Source: a candidate division WS6 bacterium GW2011_GWF2_39_15
GTDB taxonomy: Bacteria; Patescibacteriota; Dojkabacteria; SC72
DNA length: 64,000 bases
Direction: 5' to 3'
Assembly (NCBI GenBank): GCA_000993565.1
Contig: LBWK01000001.1
Coordinates: forward strand, 492,208-556,207
Each line of letters starts with the position of its first letter. Position 1 is the first letter of the stretch. The translations under genes and the position numbers were made by a program. Shown here piece by piece: positions 2,742 to 43,445 of this stretch. The notes under the pieces are model-generated. The model was not told the origin of the DNA. It ran no database searches and saw only the letters and a program-made list of their open reading frames with translations.

Positions 2742-2818
2742 TGGTGGGGGTGGGCGGAATCGAACCGCCGACATCGGCTTTATAAGAACCGCGCTCTAAC
2801 CGACTGAGCTACACCCCC
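2742..2818 (-). tRNA. tRNA-Ile with anticodon UAU (TAT in DNA), CCA encoded
   Basis: Reverse complement GGGGGTGTAGCTCAGTCGGTTAGAGCGCGGTTCTTATAAAGCCGATGTCGGCGGTTCGATTCCGCCCACCCCCACCA folds as a 77-nt cloverleaf. It has a 7-bp acceptor stem, D-arm GCTC/GAGC, anticodon stem CGGTT/AGCCG, loop CTTATAA and T-arm GGCGG-TTCGATT-CCGCC. The body resembles bacterial tRNA-Ile. Confidence 0.75.
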
Positions 2819-25809: not shown

Positions 25810-26724
25810 ATGGAATTACCCTCTCATCTTAAATCTCTATACTCTCACCTCCTCAAACATACTATTAAACCTACAAAAGATTTAAGTTTCAATTTCGACA
25901 ATGATCTGTATAAATCCATCATCACTTTCTCTAATGAGCGAATGAGGATATATGAGAATAAATCCCAAGGTTTAAAACCTCCCTATACCTATAATCCCAT
26001 ACTAAAGGAGTTTAGATTCTGTAATATTTACAGAGAATTGGATAAACAAACAATAGACTTTCACACTCTACTAAAACCTTATGTAAATGATCTTCCTCAC
26101 TGGTTGTTAAATATGCTTTTATGCAGATTTATATGTAAACCTGAAACCATTGAAGAGATCGGGTTACTGAGTTTCGATGAGAAAAACAACGCAAAGGTAT
26201 ATGAAAAACTTCTTTCACTCCCCTCTCCCAAGTATGGCAGTGCATATATCTTTCCTATTTCTCTAATTCAAAAATCCAATCATAATACCAGGGAGAAGTT
26301 CTTCTGTTTCTATCTTCCAGAAATTGTTCACAAAGTATCTGACGTTATAAGAATGTTTAAAGATGTATCCGTAATTAATGCCCTTGAAAAAATCCTTCCT
26401 ATATTCAAATATAACTTCAAATTTCACTGGACAGAGGTATTAATAGATATTGCATATCAATATCCTGATTACATAGATCTTTTTAAAAGATTTCCCATAG
26501 GTCCGGGCTCTCTACCTACAATGAAAAGGTTGAATAGTTCAAAACATCCTGAAGATGTATGCCTGGATCTTGTATCAACGGTTCCCAGTAATTTTGAGTA
26601 CCTTACATACAATGGAATACCTCTATATTTAAGTGCAGAAAACTGGGAGGGAATTGGCTGCGAATATAGGAAGTATACAAATCTTAAAGAAGGTAAAGGG
26701 AGAAAGAGAAAATATATAGTATAA
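25810..26724 (+). CDS. Hypothetical protein with no recognised family. First gene of a five-gene plus-strand cluster
   Basis: 304 aa, soluble. Conserved-looking blocks FRFCNIYRELDKQT, YGSAYIFPISL and RFPIGPGSLPTMKRL. Confidence 0.5.
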   Translation: MELPSHLKSLYSHLLKHTIKPTKDLSFNFDNDLYKSIITFSNERMRIYENKSQGLKPPYTYNPILKEFRFCNIYRELDKQTIDFHTLLKPYVNDLPHWLLNMLLCRFICKPETIEEIGLLSFDEKNNAKVYEKLLSLPSPKYGSAYIFPISLIQKSNHNTREKFFCFYLPEIVHKVSDVIRMFKDVSVINALEKILPIFKYNFKFHWTEVLIDIAYQYPDYIDLFKRFPIGPGSLPTMKRLNSSKHPEDVCLDLVSTVPSNFEYLTYNGIPLYLSAENWEGIGCEYRKYTNLKEGKGRKRKYIV

Positions 26725-28837: not shown

Positions 28838-31800
28838 CTATTTCCTTCTCACAGTAATATCCTTAGCTATCACCTTGCTCCCCTTCTCTGATATATTTAT
28901 AACTCCCGATCCATCTTCATATTTAACAACTTTATACTCACTGGAGACTAGTTCAAGCTCGTAAGCCCCTTTATACATAATGAACCGGTATCTCCCTAAC
29001 CTATCCGTTATTCTTTTCCCTACGTACCTATCAAATTTTAATTCCTTAATTGCTATAACAAGGTTGGGAACCGTTTTCCCCTTAACATCTCTGATCTCAC
29101 CAAACTTTACACGGTTACCAAAAAGAGTGGAAAAAAGCATAATCACCGCCGGTATATATAAACAGATGATAATAAAGTTCATTGTAGTTTGGTACCTGGT
29201 AACCGCATAAATTGCAAAAATAAGGCCGGACATGAAAACAACAAAATGTAGAAGTTTCAACAGAAAACTAATCCGCGACCTTGCAGATATACTAAGTGCC
29301 CTAGATCTATCCACTTTCAAAGGATCAAGGGGAATAATTACGTTAAGATCTTCCTTTCTACTCAACCTTATCAAATCTCCTTTGTAGATGGGTTCCAGCG
29401 GGTAATCTATCATCCCCTTTATTAGCTCTGTAGGATATTTATAGCCTCCCTTCTTGACTAAAAGCTTATATCTTCCTTTTGGCAGTTCCACATTAAAGGC
29501 TCCGTATACATCCGTAACGTCAGTCCATGCCAACTTGTCGTTAATATCATATATCCTCACAATAGCTCTTGATAGAGGCTCTTTTGTAACGGAATCATAC
29601 ACATATCCATATGGCTTCCCCCTCTTCCTAAATCCGAGGAACGAAAGTATGCTCAAAGAAATTTGCACGACATAATATGGTAGCGATGAGAATCCTCCTC
29701 CTAAAGCGGCCAAGCCTATTGTGACAGTTGCTGCCGTTGTAGTAGCTGTAACGACAGTGAGCTGGGGTTCCGGCAAAGTCCCAACCGTATTATCCAAAGC
29801 AATCTTAACACCATCTATCGCCTGTGCCGCCTGTTCAGGAGCGGCTTGAGTAACACTATTAACAACATTCTGTACAACTCTTACGATCACAGGATTCTGA
29901 TTTCCTGTGACAGGAGTTGGCTCAGGCTCTTCTTCCACCGGAGGCTCATTATCTTCAGGTTCTTCAACAACCTCACCGTTGCTCTCAACCTTCTCACCTA
30001 ATCCACCTGTTCCCGTTAATCCCTTTACGACCCAATAACTCACTCCGTTAATAACCGACACAGAAACTTCTACTTCTTTTCCGTTAATCTCAATAGTCTG
30101 GGGATACGGCCCGCTGAAAATAACGCTTCCTGCGCAATCGCTATTAACATCCTCAATACTCTCTGCTTTTGTACATAGTTTAAACCTGTTCGTTTCATCT
30201 TTGGGAACATACATTGTATATGTCCCTACAAATCCCGTATCATCCGGGAGATTAATGACAACCTTCCCTTCATAATTAGTAATTACTGCCTCGCTCCAGT
30301 CTCTGTTTGCATTAAACTCAACCGGTACATCGGCAATAATAAACTCCCCTTTCATTACACGAATATCCTTAACACCTCTCTGACTCCCTACATCCTCGGT
30401 CGGGTCGATATTTCCATTCTCTTTGAGCCTTAATTCCAATCCAAGAGGAACATTTTCAATTATTGCATTTGTCCCTAGAATTCTCCTTGTTCCTAAACCT
30501 GTTTGGACTCCTGCAGCATTTCTTGCATTAATTCTAAACGAATAGTCAGTAACTGGACTAAGGCCATAGATAGTAATCCCGTTTGATCCTCCGAACTCTG
30601 AGTATGTTCCCCAAACTACATTATCTATAAGCAGACCAGTAGATTTATCTAAATATCTCCTCGATGATTCTTCATATATCGAATACTCTACAGATGGATC
30701 ATTAAGCTCGGTATCGATACTTATTCTTACAGCACGAACCGTCACCGTATTTGCAGTTAAGACGCCAGGAACTGCCGCCAGTGTGTAGTTAACAAGACTC
30801 TGTGATGGAGCTGTTTCAACACCGTCTCCATTTCTTGCTTTTACAACAAACTCATACTTACCCCCAGGACTCAGATTTTTAAGTTGAACCCCTCTACTTG
30901 CCCCAAACTCTGAAGCCCTTCCCCATTTTGAAGTAGAGACAAGCTCACCGGTTCGGGGATCTATGAATCTGTTGGAAGAAACCTCAACCACACTAAACTC
31001 CGTTGTAGAAGGATTACCATTAGAGCTTAACGCCAGAAGGGAGGAATTAATAGTATTCTGAGACATAACAGCCTTTCCAGGAATAGCAGCCAATGTGTAG
31101 GCACTTGTTGCCTGCGAAACAGCAGACTCTATATTATCTCCATTCCTTGTATAAACAGCATATTCGTACTGCGTATTTATGCCAAGACCAGGGATTTCAA
31201 AACCCGTATCCCTACCCCAGTTAGTATAACTCCCCCATGCCTTGCTCAACTGCCAGGCTCCGCTCGCAAAATTAAAGTATAGCCCCGAAGAAACGTCTTT
31301 CAATGCGAAGGTTGTAACTTCAGGATTACCACCGTTATCTACAATTACCTTTATCTTGCTTTCAGACAGTGCTGTTACATTAGGTGATGCAGGGACAACA
31401 GCCAACGTATACACTTCTACGATACTTGAATTTCCCGTTACTAAAAGCTCCTCATTTCTTGCTTTAACAGCAAAACTATACTGTGCATTTGCGAACAGAT
31501 CCCTGATTGTTACACCATTGCTTCCTCCAAAGTTTGAGTATGTGCCCCATGACTCTGTAGTAGAGAGATCTCCGGTAGAGTAATCGACATATAGACCCGA
31601 TACTGTCTCGGTCAGAAGATATTTGGTATTTAAAGGATTAAGACCATTCCCGATCTTTACATTCAGTTGTGATGTAGAAGAAGCCGAAGCAGAAGCAACT
31701 ACGGGTTGTGCCGCGGGAGTATAAATACTAACCGTCTGACTGAAATCACTTCGTCCATTGGTATTGTACGCAGCAATTTTTCTTGTGTATTGAGTATTAG

Positions 31801-34800
31801 GAACTAAGCCGTATTCAGTACAGCTTGATCCCGCAGCTCCCACGCATTCAACCTTTTGAACTCCATTTTCATCAAAGACCCGATATCCATGATCATTTGC
31901 TTCATTATCTGTAAAATTCCACTGAATAGAAGAGGAGGATAGCAGTGTGGGAGTTCCAATTGTGGGAGCATTGAGTGACACAACAAAATCTTCACCCAAG
32001 CTAAATGATGTCTCAACACCGTCTCCATTTCGTGCTTTGGATACAAACTGGTAAGCCGTTCCTGAGCTTAATCCGGAAACATTCAAACCGTTACTACCTC
32101 CCCAGCTGTTATAGACAGCCCAGACGGGAGTTACAGATGTACTCCCATCAACATCCATATACACAGACGTAGTGCTGTTATATAGAGCAAACTCGGTATT
32201 TGACGGATTACCATTTGGCTGAACCTTCACATTTACTGTATCGCTACTTACCTGTGTCACTGTTGGAGCAGCCGGCACTAATGCATGAGTGTACTTACTA
32301 AGAATTACAGAGAAGTCAGTAACAACATTCTCACCATTACGTGCCCGAGCTTTAATACTATATAAAGTATTAGGAGATAACCCGGTTAATCCTAAACCGG
32401 ACCCCTCTCCTACCTCTACATATGTCCCCCATGATGTCGACGTGGAGGATGTTAATGTTCCGTTACTTACATCAATATTAAGACCTGACGCCTCTTCTCT
32501 TAGCTGGAACTCCGTTGATGCAGGGTTAGATGCCGAATCAACAACAGCTACCAGTACGGACGAGGAGCTAGGTATCAAGGATGTAAGAGCTGGCGTGTTA
32601 GCACGGGTATATCTAGATACTACAGGAGAATACCCTGTTTCAACCCCGTCGTTATTCTGTGCTTTAACCTCAAATGTATATCTGACATTTGCAGACAAAC
32701 CACTCAATATTAATCCCGAACCACTTCCCCACTGGGTATAATCTCCCCATGCAGGAGTATCGGCAAGAAGACCTGTTGAAGTATCTACAAATTTGTTTGT
32801 TGTAGTCTCATGAACCGCATATTGAGTACCGACGGGATTAGACTGAGTATTAATTGTAATCCTCAAGGAGGTATTTGAGACAGAGGTGATACTCGTAAGT
32901 GTAGGCCCGGTGGCATGCGTATATATATCTACCGGTACACTATACAAGGTTTCAACACCGACACTATTTCGTGCTTTTGTTTCCAAACTATACTGGGTAT
33001 TTGGCAAAAGCCCTGTAATACTTATGTCAGAATCACTCGCACTTCTCGCAAACCACGTAGGATTAACAACTAACGTACCGGTTACAGGGTCAACATACTT
33101 ACCGGAGTTGATTTCATAAACCGCAATCTCTGTTCCATCAGGATTACTATTCAGGTTAGTTCCAAAAGCAATAGTTCCAAGTCCTGCTGTAACATTTGTC
33201 AAAGACGGAACCGCTGCTTTAGTAACTTCGGTATCAGTAGTACTGAAAGCACTCTCTGTATTGGCATTGTAGACCTTAACCTTTCGTGTATATGAACTGT
33301 TGGGGTTAAGTCCAGTCTCATCACAATACGGGCTCTCAAACGACGGGCAGTCAACCATTATATTCCCATTCCCATCATATACTCTCACACCAAGTCCAGC
33401 TCCATTTGGATTTATAAAAGCCCATCTGATTGTATTAGGACCCGTTGACGATCCTGTCAGGTCTGTCGGGGTATCCCAGAGCGTATATGTGGAAACATTT
33501 GAAGCAGCATTAACTTCTACGCTATCACCGTTTCTCGCTATAATGAAGAAGGTTGCCAGCTCTCCCGGATTAAAACCTGATACTTCAACTCCGTTCTCGC
33601 TATTCCAGTTCAGATATATATTCCACTCGGGAGTGACAGAGAGGGTTCCCAAAGCTGTCACATAACGGCTTTTAATTGTCTCAAAGATTGAATATTCCAC
33701 ATTGCTCGGATTGCTATTAGGGCTAACTGTAACTTTAACGGTATCCATGTCGACTGGCGAAGCCGTCATTGAAGGTACGTATACGCTTGTATAAACAGGT
33801 AAATCAGGTGAAAAGAGTGTTTCAAGGGCATCTCCATTCCTAACTTTTGCCTTAAAGGTATACAAAGTGTTTGGTTGCAATCCGGTGAAGCTATATGGCA
33901 GCACACTTACCCATTCATTACCCCCAGCCGGGCAGTTCTGGCTTACACACTCAAAGTATATTCCGCTTGAATCGCTAGAAAGATTGGCACCATTACTAAT
34001 ATCCAAACTGATCTGATTAGTCGCTAAGGAACTCACATACACATCCGGTACCTCTGCAACGGTGTAAACGACCACAGGATCTGATTCAGCAGTTTCCACA
34101 CCATCCCCGTTCCTTGCAACTACTGAGAATGTGTACTGAGTATTCATTGAAAGGCCTGTAAAATTGACCTGATCATCTATAATCCACTGGCTTAAAGCCG
34201 GATCACAGTCTTCAGGTATACAATTGTAAAAGAGTGCTGTTCCATCAACTCCAAGATTTGTTACCCCGGTAGTAACTACATTTATCCCCCCGGCTGTAAC
34301 ACTGGAAACAGAGAGTGTTGGAGTATTTGCCAATGTATAACGGATAGTATCGTACGCTGCGTCACTATCACCGTTCGCGTTATATGCAATGACATATCTT
34401 GTGTACTGAGTATTAACCGAGAGTCCTGTTTCATCACAGTACGAAATATTAGGAGTTGGGCAATCTGCTTTGACTGCTCCAAAACTATCTACAATTTTAA
34501 AACCTGTTTCATTATATGAGCTGTCTATAAAGTTCCATCGAATTGAACTTGTAGACAAAGCTTCTGCAGCAACGGTTACCGGAGCGGCAGGGACATTGGA
34601 TGCCTCCGCCCCTATTGTAGCGGAAACGCCATAGGCTGTATTGTCGTTTTTCTGAGCGAAAAGGACATCAAAGTAGGGAGGAAGGGACGATTGAGAATCT
34701 GTTGTTGCTGAACAGGAATGCGTATGCGTGGCACCCGCAAGACTTACTGAGTTTGCCCCACTGCTTGTAGTTGCTGAAGGGACACCGGTTGTTATATCCA

Positions 34801-36751
34801 AAGAGTGTGAATGTGTACTACTCCCGCCTGTTCCTCCAGATACAGCAGCCCCCCTTGGGAATTTATCGTCAAGAGCAGATATACGGTTCCACCCTAATGG
34901 AGGGACACTGTCTACAATCATAATTGTTCCTGTGGGTATCGATCCGTCAGCATCCTTTGAAGCAAACAATATATCCTGATACGGTGGAAGATTATTTGCA
35001 GAGCTGGTTGTACCATTATTGGTTGTGTGAGTATGAATGGAAGCAAATATATTCGATAAAGCAGTCGGATATCTTACTACTATAATTCCTGATCCACCTG
35101 CTTTACCATAAGAGCTTGTATTACCACCTCCACCACCGCCCGCCCCAGTATTAGCCGTGCCCGCTGTAGAAGGAGTTCCACTACCTCGGCCACGACCTCC
35201 TCCATGTTGACCCCATCCACCCGTCCACCCTGATTGTTCAGCTTCAGTATTAACGCCGCCGCCACCACCACCACCGTAATACGCCCCCATGATATTGCTA
35301 TACACTCCAGTACCGCCAAGCCCACCTCGACCGTTAGCACCACCACCACCTGCACCCCCTGCACCACCACCACCACCGGTAGATACACAATTAGGAGCAT
35401 AACAGTCATAATCTGTATACTGTGCACCACCTGCATAACCGGAACCACTTGCAAACCCCCCGGCAGCTCCCTGTCCTGGCGCAGAGGAAATTAACGATGA
35501 AAAAGAGGATGCAGTACCTGCATAGTGTGCGGCACCACCGGCACCGACCGTAGCTACATAGCCTGTCCCGGCACTGACCGCAACTGTTTGTTCCTTCACC
35601 TGACCGCCACCTCCACCACGACCGGCACCAGTGACAGCATAACCTCCACCCCCACCCCCAACAACAAGGACATCCACATTTCCAGAACCATAGGCCGTAA
35701 AAGTTCCAGTTGACGTAAACGTATGAAGAGTATACGAACCGGAAGTCGTAACCGTGCCACCGGAGGCAAAAGCGGTAGATGTACTGTTTATAGTTCCTGC
35801 ACTGCTTGTAAGTGTACCTCCCGTAAATGAATGAGTGTGCGTCTCTGATCCGCCGCTTCCCCCTGCTGTCGCTTCTGATTTAACAAATTTGTCATCTAAG
35901 TCAGTAAAACGGGTCCATCCAGACGGAATGGTACCTGAGAACATGGAGATAAGCCCTGACTTTAGAGAAAAGTCGGAGGAACCGCATAATAGCAAATCGC
36001 GAAACGGAGGAATTACATTCGAAGCCGTTTCGACAGTTACAGTTGCTCCCGTGTGTGTATGAGAAGCATTTGCCGAGGAAACCGAACCAGCATTCCCTCC
36101 GCTTCCTGTAGCACCTACTGGTGCTCCCGTTGCACAGCTCGCATTTGAATGAGAATGTGATGTAGATCCTCCCGTTATCCCATACACCGCCCCTCCACGT
36201 AGTAGTTTCCCGTCAGCAGCGATATTCCTAACCCATCCAGCTGGACATGCTACGGAAGAAAGAGTGTAGATGTTTTGATTCCATACCTCCTCGGCATTAG
36301 CCGCCGATCCGTTTCCATAGTACATATATATAGACGTGCCCCCGTCTGGTACATCAGGAACCCTAACCCAAATCTGAGTGTCTGTCGTATTACATCCCGT
36401 TTCTATCCAATATTGAAGCTGAGTAGTATCATCACTGTCAACAAATCTAATATCATCACAGTCTGCTTGTATCTTATTTTCACCAATCAATGTTTGCGTA
36501 TCAACACTTACTAATACATCATAATTGGATAACGGAGCCCCTGTGTATGAGATATCAACAGGTTTTCGATACTCCCATGCGTTATCAAACCACGATTGAG
36601 CAGGTTTAATGAAGTTATCAAGGAAAAGAATTGTAATAGGAGTAACAACAAGAATGATGAAGAGGAGAAAAAATGATAACCACTTAGGAGCAGTCTTCAA
36701 TCTCACAAAAAGAGATTCTTTAGTTGAAGAACCCTGGGGAATCATCATCAA
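28838..36751 (-). CDS. Giant cell-surface protein: N-terminal TM anchor, DUF2341-like domain, three phage tail-collar-like repeats with HxH motifs, Gly-rich region, long FN3/Ig-like repeat array, C-terminal TM segments and CarboxypepD_reg-like beta-sandwich domains
   Basis: 2637 aa in one ORF. Residues about 55-160: WEYRKPVDISY...IWVRVPDVPDGGTSIYMYYGNG (DUF2341 pattern). Residues about 168-700: three units of P-x-GW-x-R...LDDKF...GG(T/S)GGS-x-THxHS...LPPY-x-D-(I/V)-LF. Residues about 360-560 are Gly-rich. Residues about 720-2150 hold around 14 beta-sandwich repeats of about 95 aa ending ...Y(T/S)(F/R)xVxARNxxG(V/D)ET. The C-terminus has two hydrophobic segments and GKPYGYVYDS...KGRYKLLVKKGGYKY / RLGRYRFIMYKGAYELELV (CarboxypepD_reg-like). 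Confidence 0.85.
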   Translation of the reverse strand: MMMIPQGSSTKESLFVRLKTAPKWLSFFLLFIILVVTPITILFLDNFIKPAQSWFDNAWEYRKPVDISYTGAPLSNYDVLVSVDTQTLIGENKIQADCDDIRFVDSDDTTQLQYWIETGCNTTDTQIWVRVPDVPDGGTSIYMYYGNGSAANAEEVWNQNIYTLSSVACPAGWVRNIAADGKLLRGGAVYGITGGSTSHSHSNASCATGAPVGATGSGGNAGSVSSANASHTHTGATVTVETASNVIPPFRDLLLCGSSDFSLKSGLISMFSGTIPSGWTRFTDLDDKFVKSEATAGGSGGSETHTHSFTGGTLTSSAGTINSTSTAFASGGTVTTSGSYTLHTFTSTGTFTAYGSGNVDVLVVGGGGGGYAVTGAGRGGGGGQVKEQTVAVSAGTGYVATVGAGGAAHYAGTASSFSSLISSAPGQGAAGGFASGSGYAGGAQYTDYDCYAPNCVSTGGGGGAGGAGGGGANGRGGLGGTGVYSNIMGAYYGGGGGGGVNTEAEQSGWTGGWGQHGGGRGRGSGTPSTAGTANTGAGGGGGGNTSSYGKAGGSGIIVVRYPTALSNIFASIHTHTTNNGTTSSANNLPPYQDILFASKDADGSIPTGTIMIVDSVPPLGWNRISALDDKFPRGAAVSGGTGGSSTHSHSLDITTGVPSATTSSGANSVSLAGATHTHSCSATTDSQSSLPPYFDVLFAQKNDNTAYGVSATIGAEASNVPAAPVTVAAEALSTSSIRWNFIDSSYNETGFKIVDSFGAVKADCPTPNISYCDETGLSVNTQYTRYVIAYNANGDSDAAYDTIRYTLANTPTLSVSSVTAGGINVVTTGVTNLGVDGTALFYNCIPEDCDPALSQWIIDDQVNFTGLSMNTQYTFSVVARNGDGVETAESDPVVVYTVAEVPDVYVSSLATNQISLDISNGANLSSDSSGIYFECVSQNCPAGGNEWVSVLPYSFTGLQPNTLYTFKAKVRNGDALETLFSPDLPVYTSVYVPSMTASPVDMDTVKVTVSPNSNPSNVEYSIFETIKSRYVTALGTLSVTPEWNIYLNWNSENGVEVSGFNPGELATFFIIARNGDSVEVNAASNVSTYTLWDTPTDLTGSSTGPNTIRWAFINPNGAGLGVRVYDGNGNIMVDCPSFESPYCDETGLNPNSSYTRKVKVYNANTESAFSTTDTEVTKAAVPSLTNVTAGLGTIAFGTNLNSNPDGTEIAVYEINSGKYVDPVTGTLVVNPTWFARSASDSDISITGLLPNTQYSLETKARNSVGVETLYSVPVDIYTHATGPTLTSITSVSNTSLRITINTQSNPVGTQYAVHETTTNKFVDTSTGLLADTPAWGDYTQWGSGSGLILSGLSANVRYTFEVKAQNNDGVETGYSPVVSRYTRANTPALTSLIPSSSSVLVAVVDSASNPASTEFQLREEASGLNIDVSNGTLTSSTSTSWGTYVEVGEGSGLGLTGLSPNTLYSIKARARNGENVVTDFSVILSKYTHALVPAAPTVTQVSSDTVNVKVQPNGNPSNTEFALYNSTTSVYMDVDGSTSVTPVWAVYNSWGGSNGLNVSGLSSGTAYQFVSKARNGDGVETSFSLGEDFVVSLNAPTIGTPTLLSSSSIQWNFTDNEANDHGYRVFDENGVQKVECVGAAGSSCTEYGLVPNTQYTRKIAAYNTNGRSDFSQTVSIYTPAAQPVVASASASSTSQLNVKIGNGLNPLNTKYLLTETVSGLYVDYSTGDLSTTESWGTYSNFGGSNGVTIRDLFANAQYSFAVKARNEELLVTGNSSIVEVYTLAVVPASPNVTALSESKIKVIVDNGGNPEVTTFALKDVSSGLYFNFASGAWQLSKAWGSYTNWGRDTGFEIPGLGINTQYEYAVYTRNGDNIESAVSQATSAYTLAAIPGKAVMSQNTINSSLLALSSNGNPSTTEFSVVEVSSNRFIDPRTGELVSTSKWGRASEFGASRGVQLKNLSPGGKYEFVVKARNGDGVETAPSQSLVNYTLAAVPGVLTANTVTVRAVRISIDTELNDPSVEYSIYEESSRRYLDKSTGLLIDNVVWGTYSEFGGSNGITIYGLSPVTDYSFRINARNAAGVQTGLGTRRILGTNAIIENVPLGLELRLKENGNIDPTEDVGSQRGVKDIRVMKGEFIIADVPVEFNANRDWSEAVITNYEGKVVINLPDDTGFVGTYTMYVPKDETNRFKLCTKAESIEDVNSDCAGSVIFSGPYPQTIEINGKEVEVSVSVINGVSYWVVKGLTGTGGLGEKVESNGEVVEEPEDNEPPVEEEPEPTPVTGNQNPVIVRVVQNVVNSVTQAAPEQAAQAIDGVKIALDNTVGTLPEPQLTVVTATTTAATVTIGLAALGGGFSSLPYYVVQISLSILSFLGFRKRGKPYGYVYDSVTKEPLSRAIVRIYDINDKLAWTDVTDVYGAFNVELPKGRYKLLVKKGGYKYPTELIKGMIDYPLEPIYKGDLIRLSRKEDLNVIIPLDPLKVDRSRALSISARSRISFLLKLLHFVVFMSGLIFAIYAVTRYQTTMNFIIICLYIPAVIMLFSTLFGNRVKFGEIRDVKGKTVPNLVIAIKELKFDRYVGKRITDRLGRYRFIMYKGAYELELVSSEYKVVKYEDGSGVINISEKGSKVIAKDITVRRK

Positions 36752-36840: not shown

Positions 36841-37233
36841 CTATTTCTCAACACCTTCTAATTTAATAACATCCCTTCTCATAGGGCTTTCTCCTCCTGT
36901 TATAAAAATTTCTAGATTTTTTCCTGTTGCCCGAAAGGTAACCCAGAAATCAGGAGCAACGACGACACCATTTTTTATAGTTCCTCCGCTTGCACTTAAC
37001 AGTTCAATTCTTACCCACTGCCGAACTGGTATTTCTGATTTTCTAAATTCTTCCAGTGACATATCAAACTCAGGCGGAATATTATCCTGCAGATCAAAAC
37101 GTACTTGTTTTGCCTCTTTCACCGGCCTCCCATTTATACTTGCAGCACCAACTGGCGTATAATCATAAAGATTAAGGTGCTCATGTAAACTTTCAAAACT
37201 TTGTTCTCCTTCTCCCATAATTTTATTAGACAA
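36841..37233 (-). CDS. Hypothetical protein, co-directional and probably co-transcribed with the giant gene
   Basis: 130-aa soluble ORF. Confidence 0.45.
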   Translation of the reverse strand: MSNKIMGEGEQSFESLHEHLNLYDYTPVGAASINGRPVKEAKQVRFDLQDNIPPEFDMSLEEFRKSEIPVRQWVRIELLSASGGTIKNGVVVAPDFWVTFRATGKNLEIFITGGESPMRRDVIKLEGVEK

Positions 37234-37248
37234 ATTTAATATTCTTAA

Positions 37249-37755
37249 TTATACAACACCTAAGTAATCTCCTCCCTCTAAGCCTGTATCTATCATCGTG
37301 TATCCTTCAAGCTCAAATGTAAAAAGAACAAGATGAGAAAGAAGTACTCCCTTTGGAGTTACAAACTGTTCAACAACCCCACCGCTAGGCATATCTGAAG
37401 CGCTTACAAAAAGGTGAACCTGTTTGGGAGTTTCGCCCTTTCGTTTGGAAATATTACCTTCATTTACAATAAATATACCGTTATGGTCCCTGCTTATTAA
37501 GTACCCCTTCTTTATTCCTCCACCAATTATTCCTTGAAATGCAGAGAGAATTTCGTCTGGGTTTCCTTTTCTTTGATTACGCAAAGCATCAACATAAGGA
37601 ACTCTGTCTTGTATTGTACGATAGAACAACGGGATAAAAATTCCGTTTCTAATTATTCCGCCTCGAGCCTTCGCCCCATCAGGGCCTTCATAGGTTTCAA
37701 CAAGGGATATACATTGTCGATATAATCCCTCTCTTTCGTTATTCTCAAAGTTCAT
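37249..37755 (-). CDS. Hypothetical protein, first gene of the putative three-gene unit ending in the giant gene
   Basis: 168-aa soluble ORF. Confidence 0.45.
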   Translation of the reverse strand: MNFENNEREGLYRQCISLVETYEGPDGAKARGGIIRNGIFIPLFYRTIQDRVPYVDALRNQRKGNPDEILSAFQGIIGGGIKKGYLISRDHNGIFIVNEGNISKRKGETPKQVHLFVSASDMPSGGVVEQFVTPKGVLLSHLVLFTFELEGYTMIDTGLEGGDYLGVV

Positions 37756-40854: not shown

Positions 40855-41264
40855 TGGTGGAGACGGTGGGAATTGAACCCACGTCCAAAAGTATTGTATT
40901 GTACCATTATACAAGCTTATCCTGTCTTAATTTACCAAGAATATCTAAAGACAAGAAGAACAATATTCCTGACCGATAAAATGTTCATCAAATTCAGCTT
41001 ATCGGAAACCGAAAATGATATACCCTGATAACGTCCGACTACTAACCCTGATCAGGGGCAAGATTAATAATCGTTAGTCTAAATAAGACTAAACTAACCT
41101 AAATAAGAGAAACTAAGTGAAGAGGTTAATCTTGCACCTAACTCCTGTACCTTACTTAAGAAAGTGTTAACTGTATTTTTTGCAGTTATCTTGTTGTTTT
41201 TGAAGAGCTACAACTCTGCTTGTGATACATATACTCTAACCTCTGTCGAATGCCTTACGTCCCC
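40855..41264 (-). ncRNA. ssrA: tmRNA (ssrA), about 410 nt, standard one-piece form. Its tRNA-like domain is formed by the 5' and 3' ends
   Basis: The minus-strand RNA starts GGGGACGUAAGGCAUUCGACAGAGG (compare E. coli GGGGCUGAUUCUGGAUUCGACGGG). It ends GGACGUGGGUUCAAUUCCCACCGUCUCCACCA (compare E. coli GGACGCGGGUUCAACUCCCGCCAGCUCCACCA). The 5' GGGGACG pairs with the 3' CGUCUCC, followed by ACCA. No ORF occupies this 440-nt gap. The tag reading frame was not resolved: the candidate from GCA at about nt 82 does not end in the canonical Ala-Ala. Confidence 0.85.
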
Positions 41265-42152: not shown

Positions 42153-43445
42153 CTACTCTTCCCAATCTATCTTTGCTCCGAGTTTCTGCAGGTTTTCTAT
42201 AAAGTTCGGGTGTGCTCTTTTAATACTGTCTGCAAAGTTAACCTTACTCTCGCCTTCAATTGAGAGAGCTACCATAGTTAATGCAATAGCTGCTCTAATT
42301 ATATTGGGTGCGTTTGTCACCGCCGGCGAAAGAGGCCTTCCCCCAAATACGATAACTCTGTGCGGATCAGCAAGTATAATCTCTGATCCAAACTTCATAA
42401 GTTCCTGTATCCAGAAAAAGCCTCCTTCATACACTTTATTCCAAAACATGATTTCCCCTTTCGATTTAACCGAAAGAGCTATCATCAGAGGAAGCAGATC
42501 AACAGGAAAATACGGCCAGGGAGCTGCTTCAATTTTAGGGAGCATATTTTCAGTAAAGGGTCTTTGAATCTTAAGTTTCTGATTCTTTCTTACTATGGCA
42601 GTCTCTCCCTCGTACTCAATCTCCACTCCTAGTTTGGCAAACGAGTTCTTTATTAGTGGAAAGTGCTGCGGAATAGCATCATGGACACGAATTTCTCCAC
42701 CGGTCATCGCTCCAAGGGCAAGCATTGTCGTTATCTCATGATGATCTGAGGTTATCGTGAATTCTCCTCCTCCCAGACTCTCAACTCCATCAATTTCCAA
42801 AACACTGGTTCCTATCCCTGTTATTTTTGCCCCTAAGCCGTTTAAGAAATTACATAGGTCCTGAACATGTGGCTCACTTGCTGCGTTCACTAATTTTGAT
42901 CTTCCAGAAGCTAGTACGGCAGCATTTATAAAGTTCTCAGTAGCTGTGACACTCATGTAATCCGGCCAAAGCCCGTTGCCTACGAATCTTTCCTGGATAC
43001 TAAACTTCATAACACTTCCATAACTCACCTTCGTTCCTAATGCTTTTAATGCATCTATATGCGGATCAATCTCACGGATGCCTAATGAGCATCCTCCGAT
43101 CTCATTCTTCATCTGAAGTTTTTTCATTCTATACAAAAGAGGAGAAAAGAGAAGAAGCGAACCTCTCATCCCTATAGGGAAATCCCCGTCGAACAGATCT
43201 TTCCTAATGTCTTTATTATTTATTTCCAACCGGCATTTCATTTTATCCCACTCTATTTTTGATCCAATAGACTTGAGCTGTTCAACCAGCTTATTTACAT
43301 CGGTTAAATCCGGCACATTGTTCAGAACAACAGTCTCATTTGTAAGAATGGTTGAGCAGAGAATCGGCAGTACAGAGTTCTTATTCCCGGATGGAGTAAT
43401 GTCACCGTTCAAAGGGTTTCCCCCATGTATAATAATGTTGGACAT
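42153..43445 (-). CDS. murA: UDP-N-acetylglucosamine 1-carboxyvinyltransferase
   Basis: 430 aa. IIIHGGNPLNGDITPSGNKNSVLPILCSTILTNETVVLNNVPDLTDV is the MurA N-terminal block. Full-length EPSP-synthase-fold protein. Confidence 0.9.
   Translation of the reverse strand: MSNIIIHGGNPLNGDITPSGNKNSVLPILCSTILTNETVVLNNVPDLTDVNKLVEQLKSIGSKIEWDKMKCRLEINNKDIRKDLFDGDFPIGMRGSLLLFSPLLYRMKKLQMKNEIGGCSLGIREIDPHIDALKALGTKVSYGSVMKFSIQERFVGNGLWPDYMSVTATENFINAAVLASGRSKLVNAASEPHVQDLCNFLNGLGAKITGIGTSVLEIDGVESLGGGEFTITSDHHEITTMLALGAMTGGEIRVHDAIPQHFPLIKNSFAKLGVEIEYEGETAIVRKNQKLKIQRPFTENMLPKIEAAPWPYFPVDLLPLMIALSVKSKGEIMFWNKVYEGGFFWIQELMKFGSEIILADPHRVIVFGGRPLSPAVTNAPNIIRAAIALTMVALSIEGESKVNFADSIKRAHPNFIENLQKLGAKIDWEE

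What the first reader, a model, noticed from the sequence alone, without database searches (positions are those of the whole stretch)
34652..36250. Three phage tail-collar-like repeats with HxH motifs in the head region of the 2637-aa surface giant
Residues about 168-700 of the giant protein contain three copies of a unit resembling the phage tail collar / MdpB-like domain: P-x-GW-x-R-[I/F]...LDDKF-x-RG...GG(T/S)GGS-x-THxHS...LPPY-x-D-[I/V]-LF. There are additional isolated (S/A)HTHT motifs and a 200-residue poly-Gly segment. HxH motifs in tail fibres coordinate metal ions in trimeric beta-structures. The combination of a receptor-binding-like fibre head, a long FN3 stalk and TM/CarboxypepD_reg anchors suggests an adhesin for host or partner attachment, perhaps derived from phage tail-fibre modules.
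Basis: partly seen in the sequence, partly recalled or inferred. Interest (0 to 1): 0.55.

Follow-up and report, generated by a model that had tools for sequence, protein, structure and literature searches.

The report
Triplicated phage-collar-like HxH knob
Near the start of a 2637-residue surface protein of a tiny symbiotic (CPR) bacterium, three tandem histidine-motif units seem to fold into one compact knob that copies, within a single chain, the three-chain tip of phage tail fibres and carries a phage-type glycine-rich binding domain.

Summary
Residues 158-703 of the giant ORF (window 28838-36751, minus strand) hold three homologous ~100-residue units. Each unit has two HxH motifs. The "poly-Gly segment" is a Pfam Gly_rich_2 domain inserted in the loop between the two HxH motifs of unit 2.

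The units define a large family with no Pfam or NCBIfam model: 2058 cluster representatives. Among the 150 best-scoring proteins, units come only in threes or sixes. The four His columns are 87-99% conserved.

AlphaFold2 folds the insert-deleted triplet as one body (pLDDT 87.7, pTM 0.84).

Pfam Collar does not hit the giant, and no PDB fold matches the triplet. Four results still link it to phage fibres:
- Foldseek against viral models finds phage phiAsp2 tail proteins Pas28 and Pas29, each with three units.
- Viral contigs carry single-unit versions at the C-termini of tail-fibre proteins.
- Some of those also touch the Collar HMM.
- hhalign against Collar+HxH proteins gives 77-86% probability.

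Best reading: a minimal Collar-type knob, triplicated into a single-chain pseudo-trimer. It probably has two six-histidine metal sites and displays a receptor-binding glycine-rich tip on a Dojkabacteria adhesin. Metal binding, geometry and adhesion are inferred.

The parts
28838..36751 (-). Giant ORF, 2637 aa counted from the TTG. The database copy P0135 starts at the next codon (ATG, 36748) and is 2636 aa.
   Evidence: P0135 is identical from residue 2. The same protein is carried on 6 metagenome contigs.
36620..36682 (-). N-terminal hydrophobic segment, residues 24-44. It is a signal peptide or a signal anchor.
   Evidence: Kyte-Doolittle window score 2.78. Cleavage after 'AQS' is my inference.
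36290..36589 (-). DUF2341 domain region. The Pfam match covers residues 97-154.
   Evidence: PF10102, 62.6-65.8 bits against a cut-off of 23.4. DUF2341 is present in 31 of the 52 proteins scanned. It lies directly upstream of the triplet in this protein and in P0001 and P0002.
35972..36280 (-). HxH unit 1, residues 158-260. HSH at 36149-36157 and HTH at 36053-36061.
   Evidence: Unit HMM positions 2-99. Motif coordinates verified. AF2 core pLDDT 94-98.
35768..35962 (-). HxH unit 2, N-terminal half, residues 264-328. HTH at 35831-35839.
   Evidence: Unit HMM positions 4-80, then interrupted. Coordinates verified.
35066..35767 (-). Gly_rich_2 domain, residues 329-562, 34% Gly. It is inserted in the loop between the two HxH motifs of unit 2.
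   Evidence: PF21722 E 5e-10 to 5e-11. phrog_2295 E 4e-22. The same insertion site recurs in at least 10 other family members. With the insert present, the top Foldseek hits are Pam3 fiber 7ypx, the Bxb1 tail tip and the ALK/LTK glycine-rich domain.
34949..35065 (-). HxH unit 2, C-terminal half, residues 563-601. HTH at 35027-35035.
   Evidence: Unit HMM positions 29-99 resume here. Coordinates verified.
34643..34936 (-). HxH unit 3, residues 606-703. HSH at 34805-34813 and HTH at 34718-34726.
   Evidence: Unit HMM positions 2-100. Coordinates verified.
30455..34588 (-). Stalk of 14 FN3-type domains, residues about 722-2099.
   Evidence: Pfam fn3 E 1.4e-40. A self-built HMM finds 14 repeats.
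28841..30181 (-). C-terminal region with two strong TM-like helices (residues 2496-2514 and 2526-2544) and CarboxypepD_reg domains. The best stretch is 29438-29608.
   Evidence: PF13620 E 7.9e-12, two stretches. Hydropathy profile.

Best explanation
Residues 158-703 form one domain built from three homologous all-beta units. The units are minimal, distant relatives of the phage tail-fibre Collar + HxH-head module.

In phage fibres one such unit per chain is brought together three times by trimerisation. Here the three units sit in one chain and pack into a single-chain pseudo-trimer. Each unit contributes two HxH motifs. I propose these make two sites of six histidines each, binding a structural metal (Zn or Fe) in the way HxH motifs do in T4 gp37.

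The variable loops between the two HxH motifs form the exposed face. In unit 2 that loop carries a complete glycine-rich domain of the kind that forms the receptor-binding tip of phage fibres (Pam3 gp24, S16 gp38).

The knob follows DUF2341 and is carried on 14 FN3 domains. The protein is held in the membrane by C-terminal helices. It therefore most likely acts as the binding head of an adhesin of a Candidatus Dojkabacteria (CPR) cell.

Shown: the repeats, the family, the rule of three, His conservation, the confident compact fold, and relatives in phage tail modules.
Inferred: the threefold geometry, metal binding, which end is distal, and adhesion.
For: - Repeats are real: blastp E 5e-11 to 1e-20, z 13-21.
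- Family size: a profile of 8 units finds 2058 representatives at E<=1e-3 and 972 at E<=1e-10.
- Rule of three in the top 150. 115 proteins have 3 units and 18 have 6. The 4-, 7- and 8-stretch cases resolve into 3 or 6 units split by insertions, though P0155 is less clear. The only 2-unit cases are fragments.
- A unit's nearest neighbour in another protein occupies the same position (1st, 2nd or 3rd) in 358 of 393 cases. The triplet is therefore inherited as a block.
- The four His columns are 87-99% conserved. Of 131 triplets, only one lacks an intact HxH in two units at the first HxH position, and none does at the second.
- AF2 with the insert: unit cores pLDDT 94-98. AF2 without the insert: mean pLDDT 87.7, pTM 0.84. 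The three units are placed confidently relative to each other without any partner chain.
- Foldseek against BFVD: phiAsp2 Pas29 E 2.9e-16 (TMq 0.64) and Pas28 E 6.8e-15. Then a tail fiber protein (prob 0.97) and a tail-collar-domain protein (prob 0.85, TMq 0.34, about one unit).
- Pas28 and Pas29 lie in the phiAsp2 tail module and each has three units.
- IMG/VR viral contigs carry 57 distinct unit-bearing ORFs. 28 have one unit, nearly always at the extreme C-terminus; 20 have three.
- One single-unit ORF (L108) has a PHROG tail spike/fiber N-terminal part and lies near a major head protein gene.
- Contig L097/L099 has three adjacent genes, each with its own start and stop and one unit. L100 and L106 show a similar layout.
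- Link to Collar: hhalign Prob 85.7 (global) and 77 (local, score 34.3 against shuffles 10.7+-1.9). The N-terminal part alone scores 22.2 against 9.6+-2.1.
- The L108 unit hits family units at E 5e-21 and Collar+HxH proteins at E 2.7e-4, sharing 'THTHxIDPPST' and 'HTVDIAAFSSG'.
- L110, L100 and L138 units hit Pfam Collar at 20.9-24.7 bits (cut-off 24) and the unit HMM at E 2e-11 to 3e-9.
- Insert: Gly_rich_2. Non-glycine identity is 29%, against 42-51% in the scaffold, and indels are concentrated there.
- Pam3 gp24's glycine-rich domain is described as the host-recognising tip and as similar to S16 gp38 and the ALK domain (PMC9608196).
- HxH motifs in the T4 gp37 tip bind seven iron ions, in what PMC11705849 describes as an octahedral coordination sphere.
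- The organism is Dojkabacteria: MurA is 79-80% identical to MAGs labelled Dojkabacteria or Saccharibacteria.
- DUF2341-bearing giant proteins of Patescibacteria are discussed as possible adhesins (PMC11809585).
Against: - Pfam Collar does not hit the giant. The unit lacks the ~30-residue helix-loop that makes up half of the Collar model.
- The two hhalign runs align 'LDxKFPRG' differently, to 'PDLRGxFxRG' or to 'LFaaIGTTfG'. Residue correspondence is therefore not settled by profiles alone.
- hhalign probabilities are below 90%. The match of the C-terminal strand is marginal (9.7 against a shuffle maximum of 9.5).
- I could not see model coordinates. Convergence of the histidines on an axis is not verified.
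- His losses are single and uncorrelated, which neither proves nor disproves shared sites.
- The top-150 list is ranked by score, so single-unit cellular proteins could not appear in it.
- BLAST-level search finds the triplet in only one of 50,697 phage records.
- There is no experimental or strain-variation evidence for adhesion.
Confidence: 0.6

Rival explanations
1. The giant carries ordinary Collar-type domains that act as in phages. The giant protein homotrimerises, and each HxH motif meets its copies from two other chains.
For: Phage HxH sites are intermolecular (PMC11705849). Single-unit viral relatives exist that presumably trimerise.
Against: - Unit number is 3 or 6 in the top 150 family proteins.
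- Unit positions are orthologous across proteins.
- AF2 packs the three units of one chain into one body at pTM 0.84.
- The rest of the protein is FN3 domains. From general knowledge, FN3 arrays are usually monomeric.
- Phage Pas28 and Pas29 also carry three units per chain.
Confidence: 0.1
2. The triplet is a separate all-beta HxH domain family. It resembles Collar-type phage knobs only by convergence on Gly/Ser/Thr-rich HxH strands, with no common ancestry.
For: - No Collar HMM hit to the giant.
- No PDB fold match.
- Ambiguous hhalign registers.
- Part of the profile score comes from the HxH motifs themselves.
- 3 of 52 members hit YmaF instead.
Against: - The N-terminal part without any HxH still scores 6 SD above shuffles.
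- Intermediate viral sequences are matched over the same residues by both HMMs: L110 residues 105-128 by Collar and 103-208 by the unit HMM.
- Long shared strings link the L108 unit and Collar proteins.
- Foldseek gives prob 0.85-0.97 to tail fiber and collar models.
Confidence: 0.2
3. The histidine motifs serve metal capture or catalysis, as a metal-scavenging surface protein or a metallo-hydrolase, rather than structural stabilisation of a binding head.
For: There are twelve nearly invariant histidines per triplet. From general knowledge, HxH motifs occur in metallo-enzymes. Phage HxH fibres have been proposed as iron ligands (PMC11705849).
Against: - No conserved acidic or nucleophilic residues accompany the His columns.
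- No enzyme family is hit in Pfam or NCBIfam.
- Relatives sit at the C-terminal tips of phage tail fibres.
- The variable parts are loops and inserted binding domains.
Confidence: 0.08
4. The motifs are chance features of low-complexity G/S/T-rich sequence.
For: The region is rich in G, S and T. The tblastn search of a family triplet (P0001) against phages found nothing; BLAST's low-complexity filter may have contributed.
Against: - Repeat z-scores are 13-21.
- The family has 2058 members, with E-values down to 1e-134.
- His conservation is 87-99%.
- AF2 pLDDT is 94-98 in the unit cores.
Confidence: 0.02

Closest known systems
Phage Tail Collar domain (Pfam PF07484) with an HxH-containing head, as in T4 gp12 and 'microcystin-dependent protein'/phiM7 gp88-like tail fibre C-termini
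   Same: The order of elements is the same: an N-terminal beta-strand, P-x-G-W, a (P)DL-R/K-x-F-x-RG element, a Gly-rich turn, HxH motif(s), a variable head, then a C-terminal hydrophobic strand. Profile-profile probability is 77-86%. Bridging viral sequences exist.
   Different: - The ~30-residue helix-loop ('NGAAVSRTTYAALFAAIGTTFGAGDGSTTFN') is absent.
- The Collar HMM does not score the giant.
- There are exactly two HxH motifs per unit rather than a variable run.
- Three units lie in one chain instead of one unit per chain of a homotrimer.
- The host is a cellular FN3-stalk surface protein, not a virion fibre.
Actinoplanes phage phiAsp2 Pas28 and Pas29 (tail module; Pas29 is annotated 'possible receptor recognizing protein; contains HXHY motifs')
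   Same: They have the same triplet fold (Foldseek E 2.9e-16 and 6.8e-15, TMq 0.60-0.64). They have three units per chain by the unit HMM (E 2e-18 and 4e-13).
   Different: - Units are longer (~140 aa) and have four HxH motifs each.
- Sequence identity is 22-23% in the Foldseek alignment.
- The annotated glycine-rich insert and DUF2341 of the giant were not seen in them, though they were not scanned against Pfam.
- They are virion proteins, uncharacterised experimentally as far as I found.
HxH metal sites of phage fibres (T4 gp37 tip with seven Fe; T4 gp12 with Zn)
   Same: HxH motifs lie in Gly/Ser/Thr-rich beta structure. Three motifs are available per putative site. Conservation is strong (PMC11705849).
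   Different: The three motifs would come from one chain. No metal and no geometry have been shown here. The T4 gp12 zinc detail rests on my own knowledge, not on a tool result.
Glycine-rich (polyglycine-II lattice) receptor-binding domains: Pfam Gly_rich_2, Pam3 gp24, S16 gp38, ALK/LTK glycine-rich domain
   Same: The insert matches PF21722 above threshold. It is the part of the model that draws the Pam3 fiber, Bxb1 tail tip and ALK/LTK hits. It has a conserved Gly framework with variable non-Gly segments, as described for gp24 (PMC9608196).
   Different: It is inserted into a loop of another domain instead of ending a trimeric fibre. Foldseek scores are weak (E 0.07, prob 0.84). AF2 confidence for the insert is only 40-77.
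YmaF family (PF12788)
   Same: 3 of 52 family members hit it over the stretch between the two HxH motifs. P0139 gives E 4.8e-7, above the cut-off.
   Different: The giant itself does not hit it. YmaF covers only the HxH...HxH half of a unit. No function was evident from the titles and abstracts of the nine papers that mention it.

Membership tests
Pfam Collar (PF07484) | Hit to the curated HMM at or above the gathering score (24 bits) | tested here: not met
   No hit at E<=1 for the giant or the 573-aa segment. None for 10 family members with the limit at E<=10. Only viral single-unit relatives reach 20.9-24.7 bits.
Pfam Collar (PF07484) | N-terminal beta-strand followed by P-x-G-W/Y/F | tested here: met
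   'P.GW' is conserved in all three unit positions. hhalign aligns it to the Collar 'APtGwL'.
Pfam Collar (PF07484) | Helix-loop segment between the GW motif and the PDLRG motif (about 30 residues; half of the HMM) | tested here: not met
   hhalign opens a gap of about 30 columns here. The unit has 'GWTRFSxLDxKF' directly.
Pfam Collar (PF07484) | A third, conserved beta-strand that returns after an intervening 'head' of about 100 residues | tested here: inconclusive
   'PPYxxhhF' aligns to 'RPRNiALLaCI'. The score is 9.7 against shuffles 5.2+-1.3, with a shuffle maximum of 9.5. AF2 predicts a 9-residue strand there.
Pfam Collar (PF07484) | Profile-profile similarity to bona fide Collar proteins | tested here: inconclusive
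   hhalign Prob 85.7 (global) and 77.1 (local). 0 of 100 column shuffles reach the local score. This is below the 95% usually required.
Pfam Collar (PF07484) | Assembly of three copies around a threefold axis | not testable with these tools
   No coordinates or multimer prediction were available. Indirect support comes from units in threes or sixes and pTM 0.84 for one chain.
Phage-fibre HxH metal site (T4 gp37/gp12 type) | Conserved HxH motifs | tested here: met
   Six motifs are present. Family His columns are 87-99% conserved.
Phage-fibre HxH metal site (T4 gp37/gp12 type) | Six histidines from three symmetry-related motifs coordinating one ion octahedrally | not testable with these tools
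   Model coordinates are not returned. Metal content needs experiment.
Pfam Gly_rich_2 (PF21722) for the insert | HMM hit above the gathering score over the full model | tested here: met
   40.3-43.6 bits against 24.3, model positions 1-225 of 226.
Pfam Gly_rich_2 (PF21722) for the insert | Fold like the solved TNF-like + polyglycine lattice domains (Pam3 gp24, ALK) | tested here: inconclusive
   Foldseek gives 7ypx E 0.07 (prob 0.84) and ALK/LTK E 0.65-10. The hits vanish when the insert is deleted. Insert pLDDT is 40-77.
Unnamed 'HxH triplet' family defined here | Three consecutive units matching the unit profile, each with two HxH motifs | tested here: met
   In the giant, the four HMM stretches resolve into three units. 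The same holds in the other top-150 proteins.
DUF2341 (PF10102) | HMM hit above the gathering score | tested here: met
   62.6-65.8 bits against 23.4.
YmaF (PF12788) | HMM hit above the gathering score (27 bits) | tested here: not met
   Not among the giant's hits. Only 3 of 52 relatives hit it.

The most novel reading that the evidence does not exclude
The HxH triplet is a natural single-chain version of a trimeric phage receptor-binding knob. It is used by ultra-small episymbionts (CPR bacteria and DPANN archaea) as a metal-clamped scaffold. Its unit-2 loop accepts interchangeable receptor-binding domains. The same host-recognition hardware circulates between phages (one-unit, three-gene and three-unit forms) and cellular adhesins.
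Probability: 0.35. Interest if true: 0.7.

Novelty: new variant of a known kind. Interest (0 to 1): 0.55.

Why it matters
A domain family with at least about 2000 sequence clusters has no Pfam or NCBIfam model, and every sampled member is labelled hypothetical or only 'DUF2341 domain-containing'. It sits directly after DUF2341, at the N-terminal end of giant surface proteins. One sampled member is from a DPANN archaeon (Woesearchaeota) and this window is from a CPR bacterium.

If the knob is a single-chain copy of a phage fibre tip, three things follow:
- It gives a concrete, testable candidate for the part of these giant proteins that touches the host cell.
- It offers a natural example of a trimer converted into a pseudo-trimer by gene triplication. 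Homotrimeric, three-gene and fused forms all still exist in viral contigs.
- It provides a monomeric scaffold that already tolerates large domain insertions, which may be useful for engineering binding proteins.

A profile for this unit would also improve annotation of many CPR and DPANN proteins.

Tried and rejected
- Pfam, NCBIfam, PHROGs and PDB sequence searches on the units gave no Collar, fibre or other hit. The only result was a sub-threshold HTH-motif match to FtbO 9j1l at E 0.19.
- tblastn of a family triplet (P0001) against 50,697 phage records found nothing. The Pas29 triplet finds only phiAsp2 itself.
- Foldseek of the model with the insert gave phage-fibre and ALK hits. I first took these as support for the collar idea. 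Deleting the insert removed them, so they belong to the Gly_rich_2 domain.
- The search for related loci with the unit alignment failed for lack of a conserved 7-10 column stretch. With a single triplet it used idiosyncratic peptides and found nothing in IMG/VR. A degenerate DNA pattern for GGTGGxxTHTH worked instead.
- Testing for all-or-none loss of histidines across the three units was uninformative, because losses are rare and single.
- The search for close orthologues, meant to test strain hypervariability, returned only 5 distant DUF2341 proteins. That test could not be done.
- The upstream neighbours (37249-37755 and 36841-37233) were checked for pilin-like N-termini because DUF2341 has been linked to type IV pili-like systems. 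They are not pilin-like.
- P0008 carries Collar and Gly_rich_2 in one protein, but it matched our query only through the glycine-rich part. It is not a bridge for the units.
Full report
**Observation**

The finding lies in a 2637-codon ORF on the minus strand (28838-36751). Coordinates 34652-36250 correspond to residues 168-700.

The protein has exactly six HxH motifs, all between residues 199 and 678. They belong to three homologous units:
- U1: residues 158-260.
- U2: residues 264-328 plus 563-601.
- U3: residues 606-703.

Each unit reads: hydrophobic strand, P-x-G-W-x-R, L-D-x-K-F-P-R-G, G-G-T-G-G-S-x-T-H-x-H-S, a variable loop of 25-35 residues, H-T-H, about 12 residues, then P-P-Y/F-x-D-hydrophobic strand.

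Pairwise blastp E-values are 5e-11 to 1e-20. Smith-Waterman scores lie 13-21 SD above shuffles.

It is inserted between the two HxH motifs of unit 2.

**The rest of the protein and the organism**

- An N-terminal hydrophobic segment (residues 24-44) is followed by DUF2341.
- After the triplet come 14 FN3-type domains, residues about 722-2099.
- The C-terminal region has two strong TM-like helices and CarboxypepD_reg domains.
- The window is bacterial chromosome. It carries a tmRNA, tRNAs, a MurA-type gene (Pfam EPSP_synthase family) and an M23 peptidase.
- MurA is 79-80% identical to the two best MAGs, one labelled Candidatus Dojkabacteria and one uncultured Saccharibacteria. Most of the closest hits are Dojkabacteria, a CPR/Patescibacteria lineage.
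- The identical protein (P0135, starting at the second codon) is on six metagenome contigs.

**A large unannotated family with a rule of three**

Two homologues (P0001, P0002) have DUF2341 followed by three insert-free units. A profile of eight units, searched against 1.84 billion representatives, found 2058 proteins at E<=1e-3 and 972 at E<=1e-10.

I re-annotated the 150 best with the unit HMM:
- 115 have three units and 18 have six.
- The 13 with four stretches are three units with unit 2 split by an insertion.
- The 7- and 8-stretch cases resolve into six units with such splits, although P0155 is less clear.
- The only two-unit cases are truncated fragments.
- The insertions are mostly Gly_rich_2-like domains at the same site as in this protein. 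Some are longer glycine-rich domains of another type.

A unit's nearest neighbour in a different protein occupies the same ordinal position in 358 of 393 cases. The triplet is therefore an old, co-inherited block rather than a freely expanding repeat.

The four His columns are the most conserved positions, at 87-99% in each unit position. Losses are single substitutions. Only one of 131 triplets lacks an intact motif in two units.

Caveat: the list is ranked by total score, so single-unit cellular proteins could not have appeared in it.

The ten members I looked up were either unnamed, 'hypothetical protein' or 'DUF2341 domain-containing protein'. One is from a Woesearchaeota archaeon and one cluster includes Candidatus Caldipriscus. 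Pfam covers none of the unit except occasional YmaF hits in 3 of 52 proteins. NCBIfam gives nothing for the giant.

**Structure prediction**

- AF2 on residues 155-705 with 52 sequences gave unit cores at pLDDT 94-98, a weaker insert (40-77) and pTM 0.60.
- An insert-deleted construct gave mean pLDDT 87.7 and pTM 0.84. The same all-beta strand pattern repeats three times.
- A pTM of 0.84 for one 320-residue chain means the three units are placed confidently against each other with no partner chain.
- The tools do not return coordinates. I could not verify a threefold axis or clustering of the histidines.

**Is it Collar-like? Negative results**

- Pfam Collar and Phage_fiber_2 do not hit at E<=1.
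- Collar does not hit ten relatives even with the limit at E<=10.
- PHROGs and PDB sequence searches are empty for the units.
- Foldseek of the insert-free model against the PDB finds nothing (best E 0.76, prob 0.01).
- With the insert present, the top hits were the Pam3 fiber, the Bxb1 tail tip and the ALK/LTK glycine-rich domains. They disappear on deleting the insert, so that similarity belongs to the Gly_rich_2 domain.

**Is it Collar-like? Positive results**

1. Foldseek against viral models finds Actinoplanes phage phiAsp2 Pas29 (E 2.9e-16, TMq 0.64) and Pas28 (E 6.8e-15).
   - Weaker hits follow: an Aeromonas phage tail fiber (prob 0.97) and a 'phage tail collar domain containing protein' (prob 0.85, TMq 0.34, roughly one unit of three).
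   - Pas28 and Pas29 lie between tail genes. Pas29 is annotated as a possible receptor-recognising protein with HXHY motifs.
   - Each has three units by the unit HMM (E 4e-13 and 2e-18).
2. A DNA pattern for GGTGGxxTHTH found 57 IMG/VR contigs.
   - These carry 57 distinct unit-bearing ORFs. 28 have a single unit, nearly always at the extreme C-terminus, and 20 have three.
   - One single-unit protein (L108, 485 aa) has a PHROG tail-spike/fibre N-terminal part and lies near a major head protein gene.
   - Contig L097/L099 has three adjacent genes, each with its own start, a short helical N-terminus, one unit and a stop. L100 and L106 show three adjacent single-unit ORFs of similar layout.
3. 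I collected 111 bona fide Collar proteins with HxH-rich heads (phiM7 gp88-like, all PF07484).
   - hhalign of the 393-unit alignment against them gives Prob 85.7 (global, P 6e-7) and 77 (local).
   - The local score is 34.3, against 10.7+-1.9 (maximum 17.3) for 100 column shuffles.
   - The part before the first HxH still scores 22.2, against 9.6+-2.1.
   - The C-terminal strand is marginal.
4. Bridging sequences exist.
   - Viral single-unit proteins L110, L100 and L138 are matched by the unit HMM (E 2e-11 to 3e-9) and by Pfam Collar at 20.9-24.7 bits, against a cut-off of 24.
   - In L110 both HMMs match the same residues.
   - L110 reads 'IPAGWKLCDGTAGTPDLRDKFVRGA...GGTGGSDTHTH'. This shows how 'GW..CDG...PDLRxxFxRG' of Collar shortens to 'GWNRISALDDKFPRGA...GGTGGSSTHSH' in this protein.

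Together these make distant homology to the Collar + HxH-head module likely. I estimate about 0.75. Formal PF07484 membership fails, because the HMM does not hit and the ~30-residue helix-loop is missing.

**How it most likely works**

Phage fibres are trimers. In the T4 gp37 tip, HxH motifs of the fibre bind seven iron ions (PMC11705849). From my own knowledge, T4 gp12 binds Zn with His445 and His447 of three chains.

The unit appears in four arrangements:
- One unit at the C-terminus of phage fibre proteins.
- Three adjacent one-unit genes.
- Three fused units in phage tail proteins.
- Three or six fused units in cellular proteins.

The simplest explanation is that the functional body always contains three units. 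In this protein the chain supplies all three, forming a single-chain pseudo-trimer. Two HxH motifs per unit would then give two six-histidine sites.

The least conserved parts are the loops between the two HxH motifs, which also have low pLDDT. In unit 2 that loop carries the Gly_rich_2 domain. In the Pam3 gp24 structure the glycine-rich domain is the distal, host-recognising part of the fibre. It has a conserved glycine framework and a hypervariable tip, and it resembles S16 gp38 and the ALK ligand-binding domain (PMC9608196).

In the ten closest insert-bearing relatives, non-glycine identity in the insert is 29%, against 42-51% in the scaffold. Indels are concentrated there.

The head follows DUF2341 and precedes 14 FN3 domains and C-terminal membrane helices. 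If the N-terminal segment is a cleaved signal peptide, the head would sit at the far end of a stalk. I estimate that stalk at roughly 50 nm, assuming about 3.5 nm per FN3 domain. DUF2341-bearing giant proteins of Patescibacteria have been discussed as possible adhesion or host-interaction factors (PMC11809585).

Status of each step:
- Shown: repeats, family, rule of three, His conservation, compact predicted fold, phage relatives, identity of the insert.
- Inferred: threefold geometry, metal binding, orientation, adhesion.

**Rivals**

- An intermolecular homotrimer is disfavoured by the rule of three, positional orthology and the single-chain AF2 result.
- Convergence rather than homology to Collar remains possible (about 0.2), because profile probabilities are below 90% and the alignment register is ambiguous.
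- A catalytic or metal-scavenging role has no support beyond the histidines.
- Low-complexity chance is excluded.

**Novelty and verdict**

The region is collar-like and phage-related, but it is not a Collar family member. It is probably not an intermolecular trimer. The direction of transfer is unknown, since BLAST finds the triplet in only one of 50,697 phage genomes.

I found no description of this triplet in the literature searched. I rate it a new variant of a known kind and of moderate interest. The main weakness is that geometry and metal binding could not be checked with the tools available.

Noticed in passing
L097 110-1860 (same genes in L099); L100 4050-5310; L106 2918-4280: Viral contigs with three adjacent small ORFs (137-202 aa), each carrying one HxH/collar-like unit at its C-terminus. 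This looks like a three-gene (heterotrimer?) form of the same knob. In L097/L099 each ORF clearly has its own start and stop.
   Followed up: partly
P0192, P0193, P0203, P0183 (unit-2 loop): Some family members carry a different, longer insert (360-1090 aa) at the same unit-2 site. It is a glycine-rich, beta-solenoid-like domain ('...GGILMFRATGTVTVNGTIHA...GRIAIEY'). In P0183 there is an extra DUF2341/LamG-like stretch.
   Followed up: no
P0139: A family member whose three units are up to 99% identical to each other, pointing to recent triplication or gene conversion. It is also the member that hits Pfam YmaF above threshold.
   Followed up: partly
window 30455-34588 (-): The 14 FN3 domains form a higher-order pattern: one short 'IRWNF...YNANG' type domain followed by 3, 4 and 4 long-type domains. 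This suggests block duplication of the stalk.
   Followed up: no
window 42153-43445 (-): The MurA-like protein is 79-80% identical to Dojkabacteria-type MAGs. It is also about 60-62% identical to MurA of many Opitutaceae/Verrucomicrobiota genomes, which is unusually high across phyla. Several close hits sit in MAGs labelled Gammaproteobacteria or Saccharibacteria. Possible explanations are horizontal transfer or mis-binned MAGs.
   Followed up: no
window 25810-26724 (+): An ORF matches the 5-hmdU DNA kinase helical domain (PF18723, E 8.6e-20). This domain belongs to phage-type thymidine hypermodification systems, yet here it is in a CPR chromosome.
   Followed up: no
window 2742-2818 (-): A tRNA-Ile with anticodon TAT, which is uncommon in bacteria. 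From general knowledge, AUA is usually read by a lysidine-modified CAT tRNA.
   Followed up: no
window 40855-41264 (-): A tmRNA gene (Rfam 122.5 bits) with the predicted tag peptide AKNTVNTFLSKVQELGARLTSSLSFSYLG.
   Followed up: no
P0008: A 501-aa 'microcystin-dependent protein' combines two canonical Collar domains with a C-terminal Gly_rich_2 domain. Collar-type and glycine-rich modules therefore also co-occur in tandem, not only as an insertion.
   Followed up: partly
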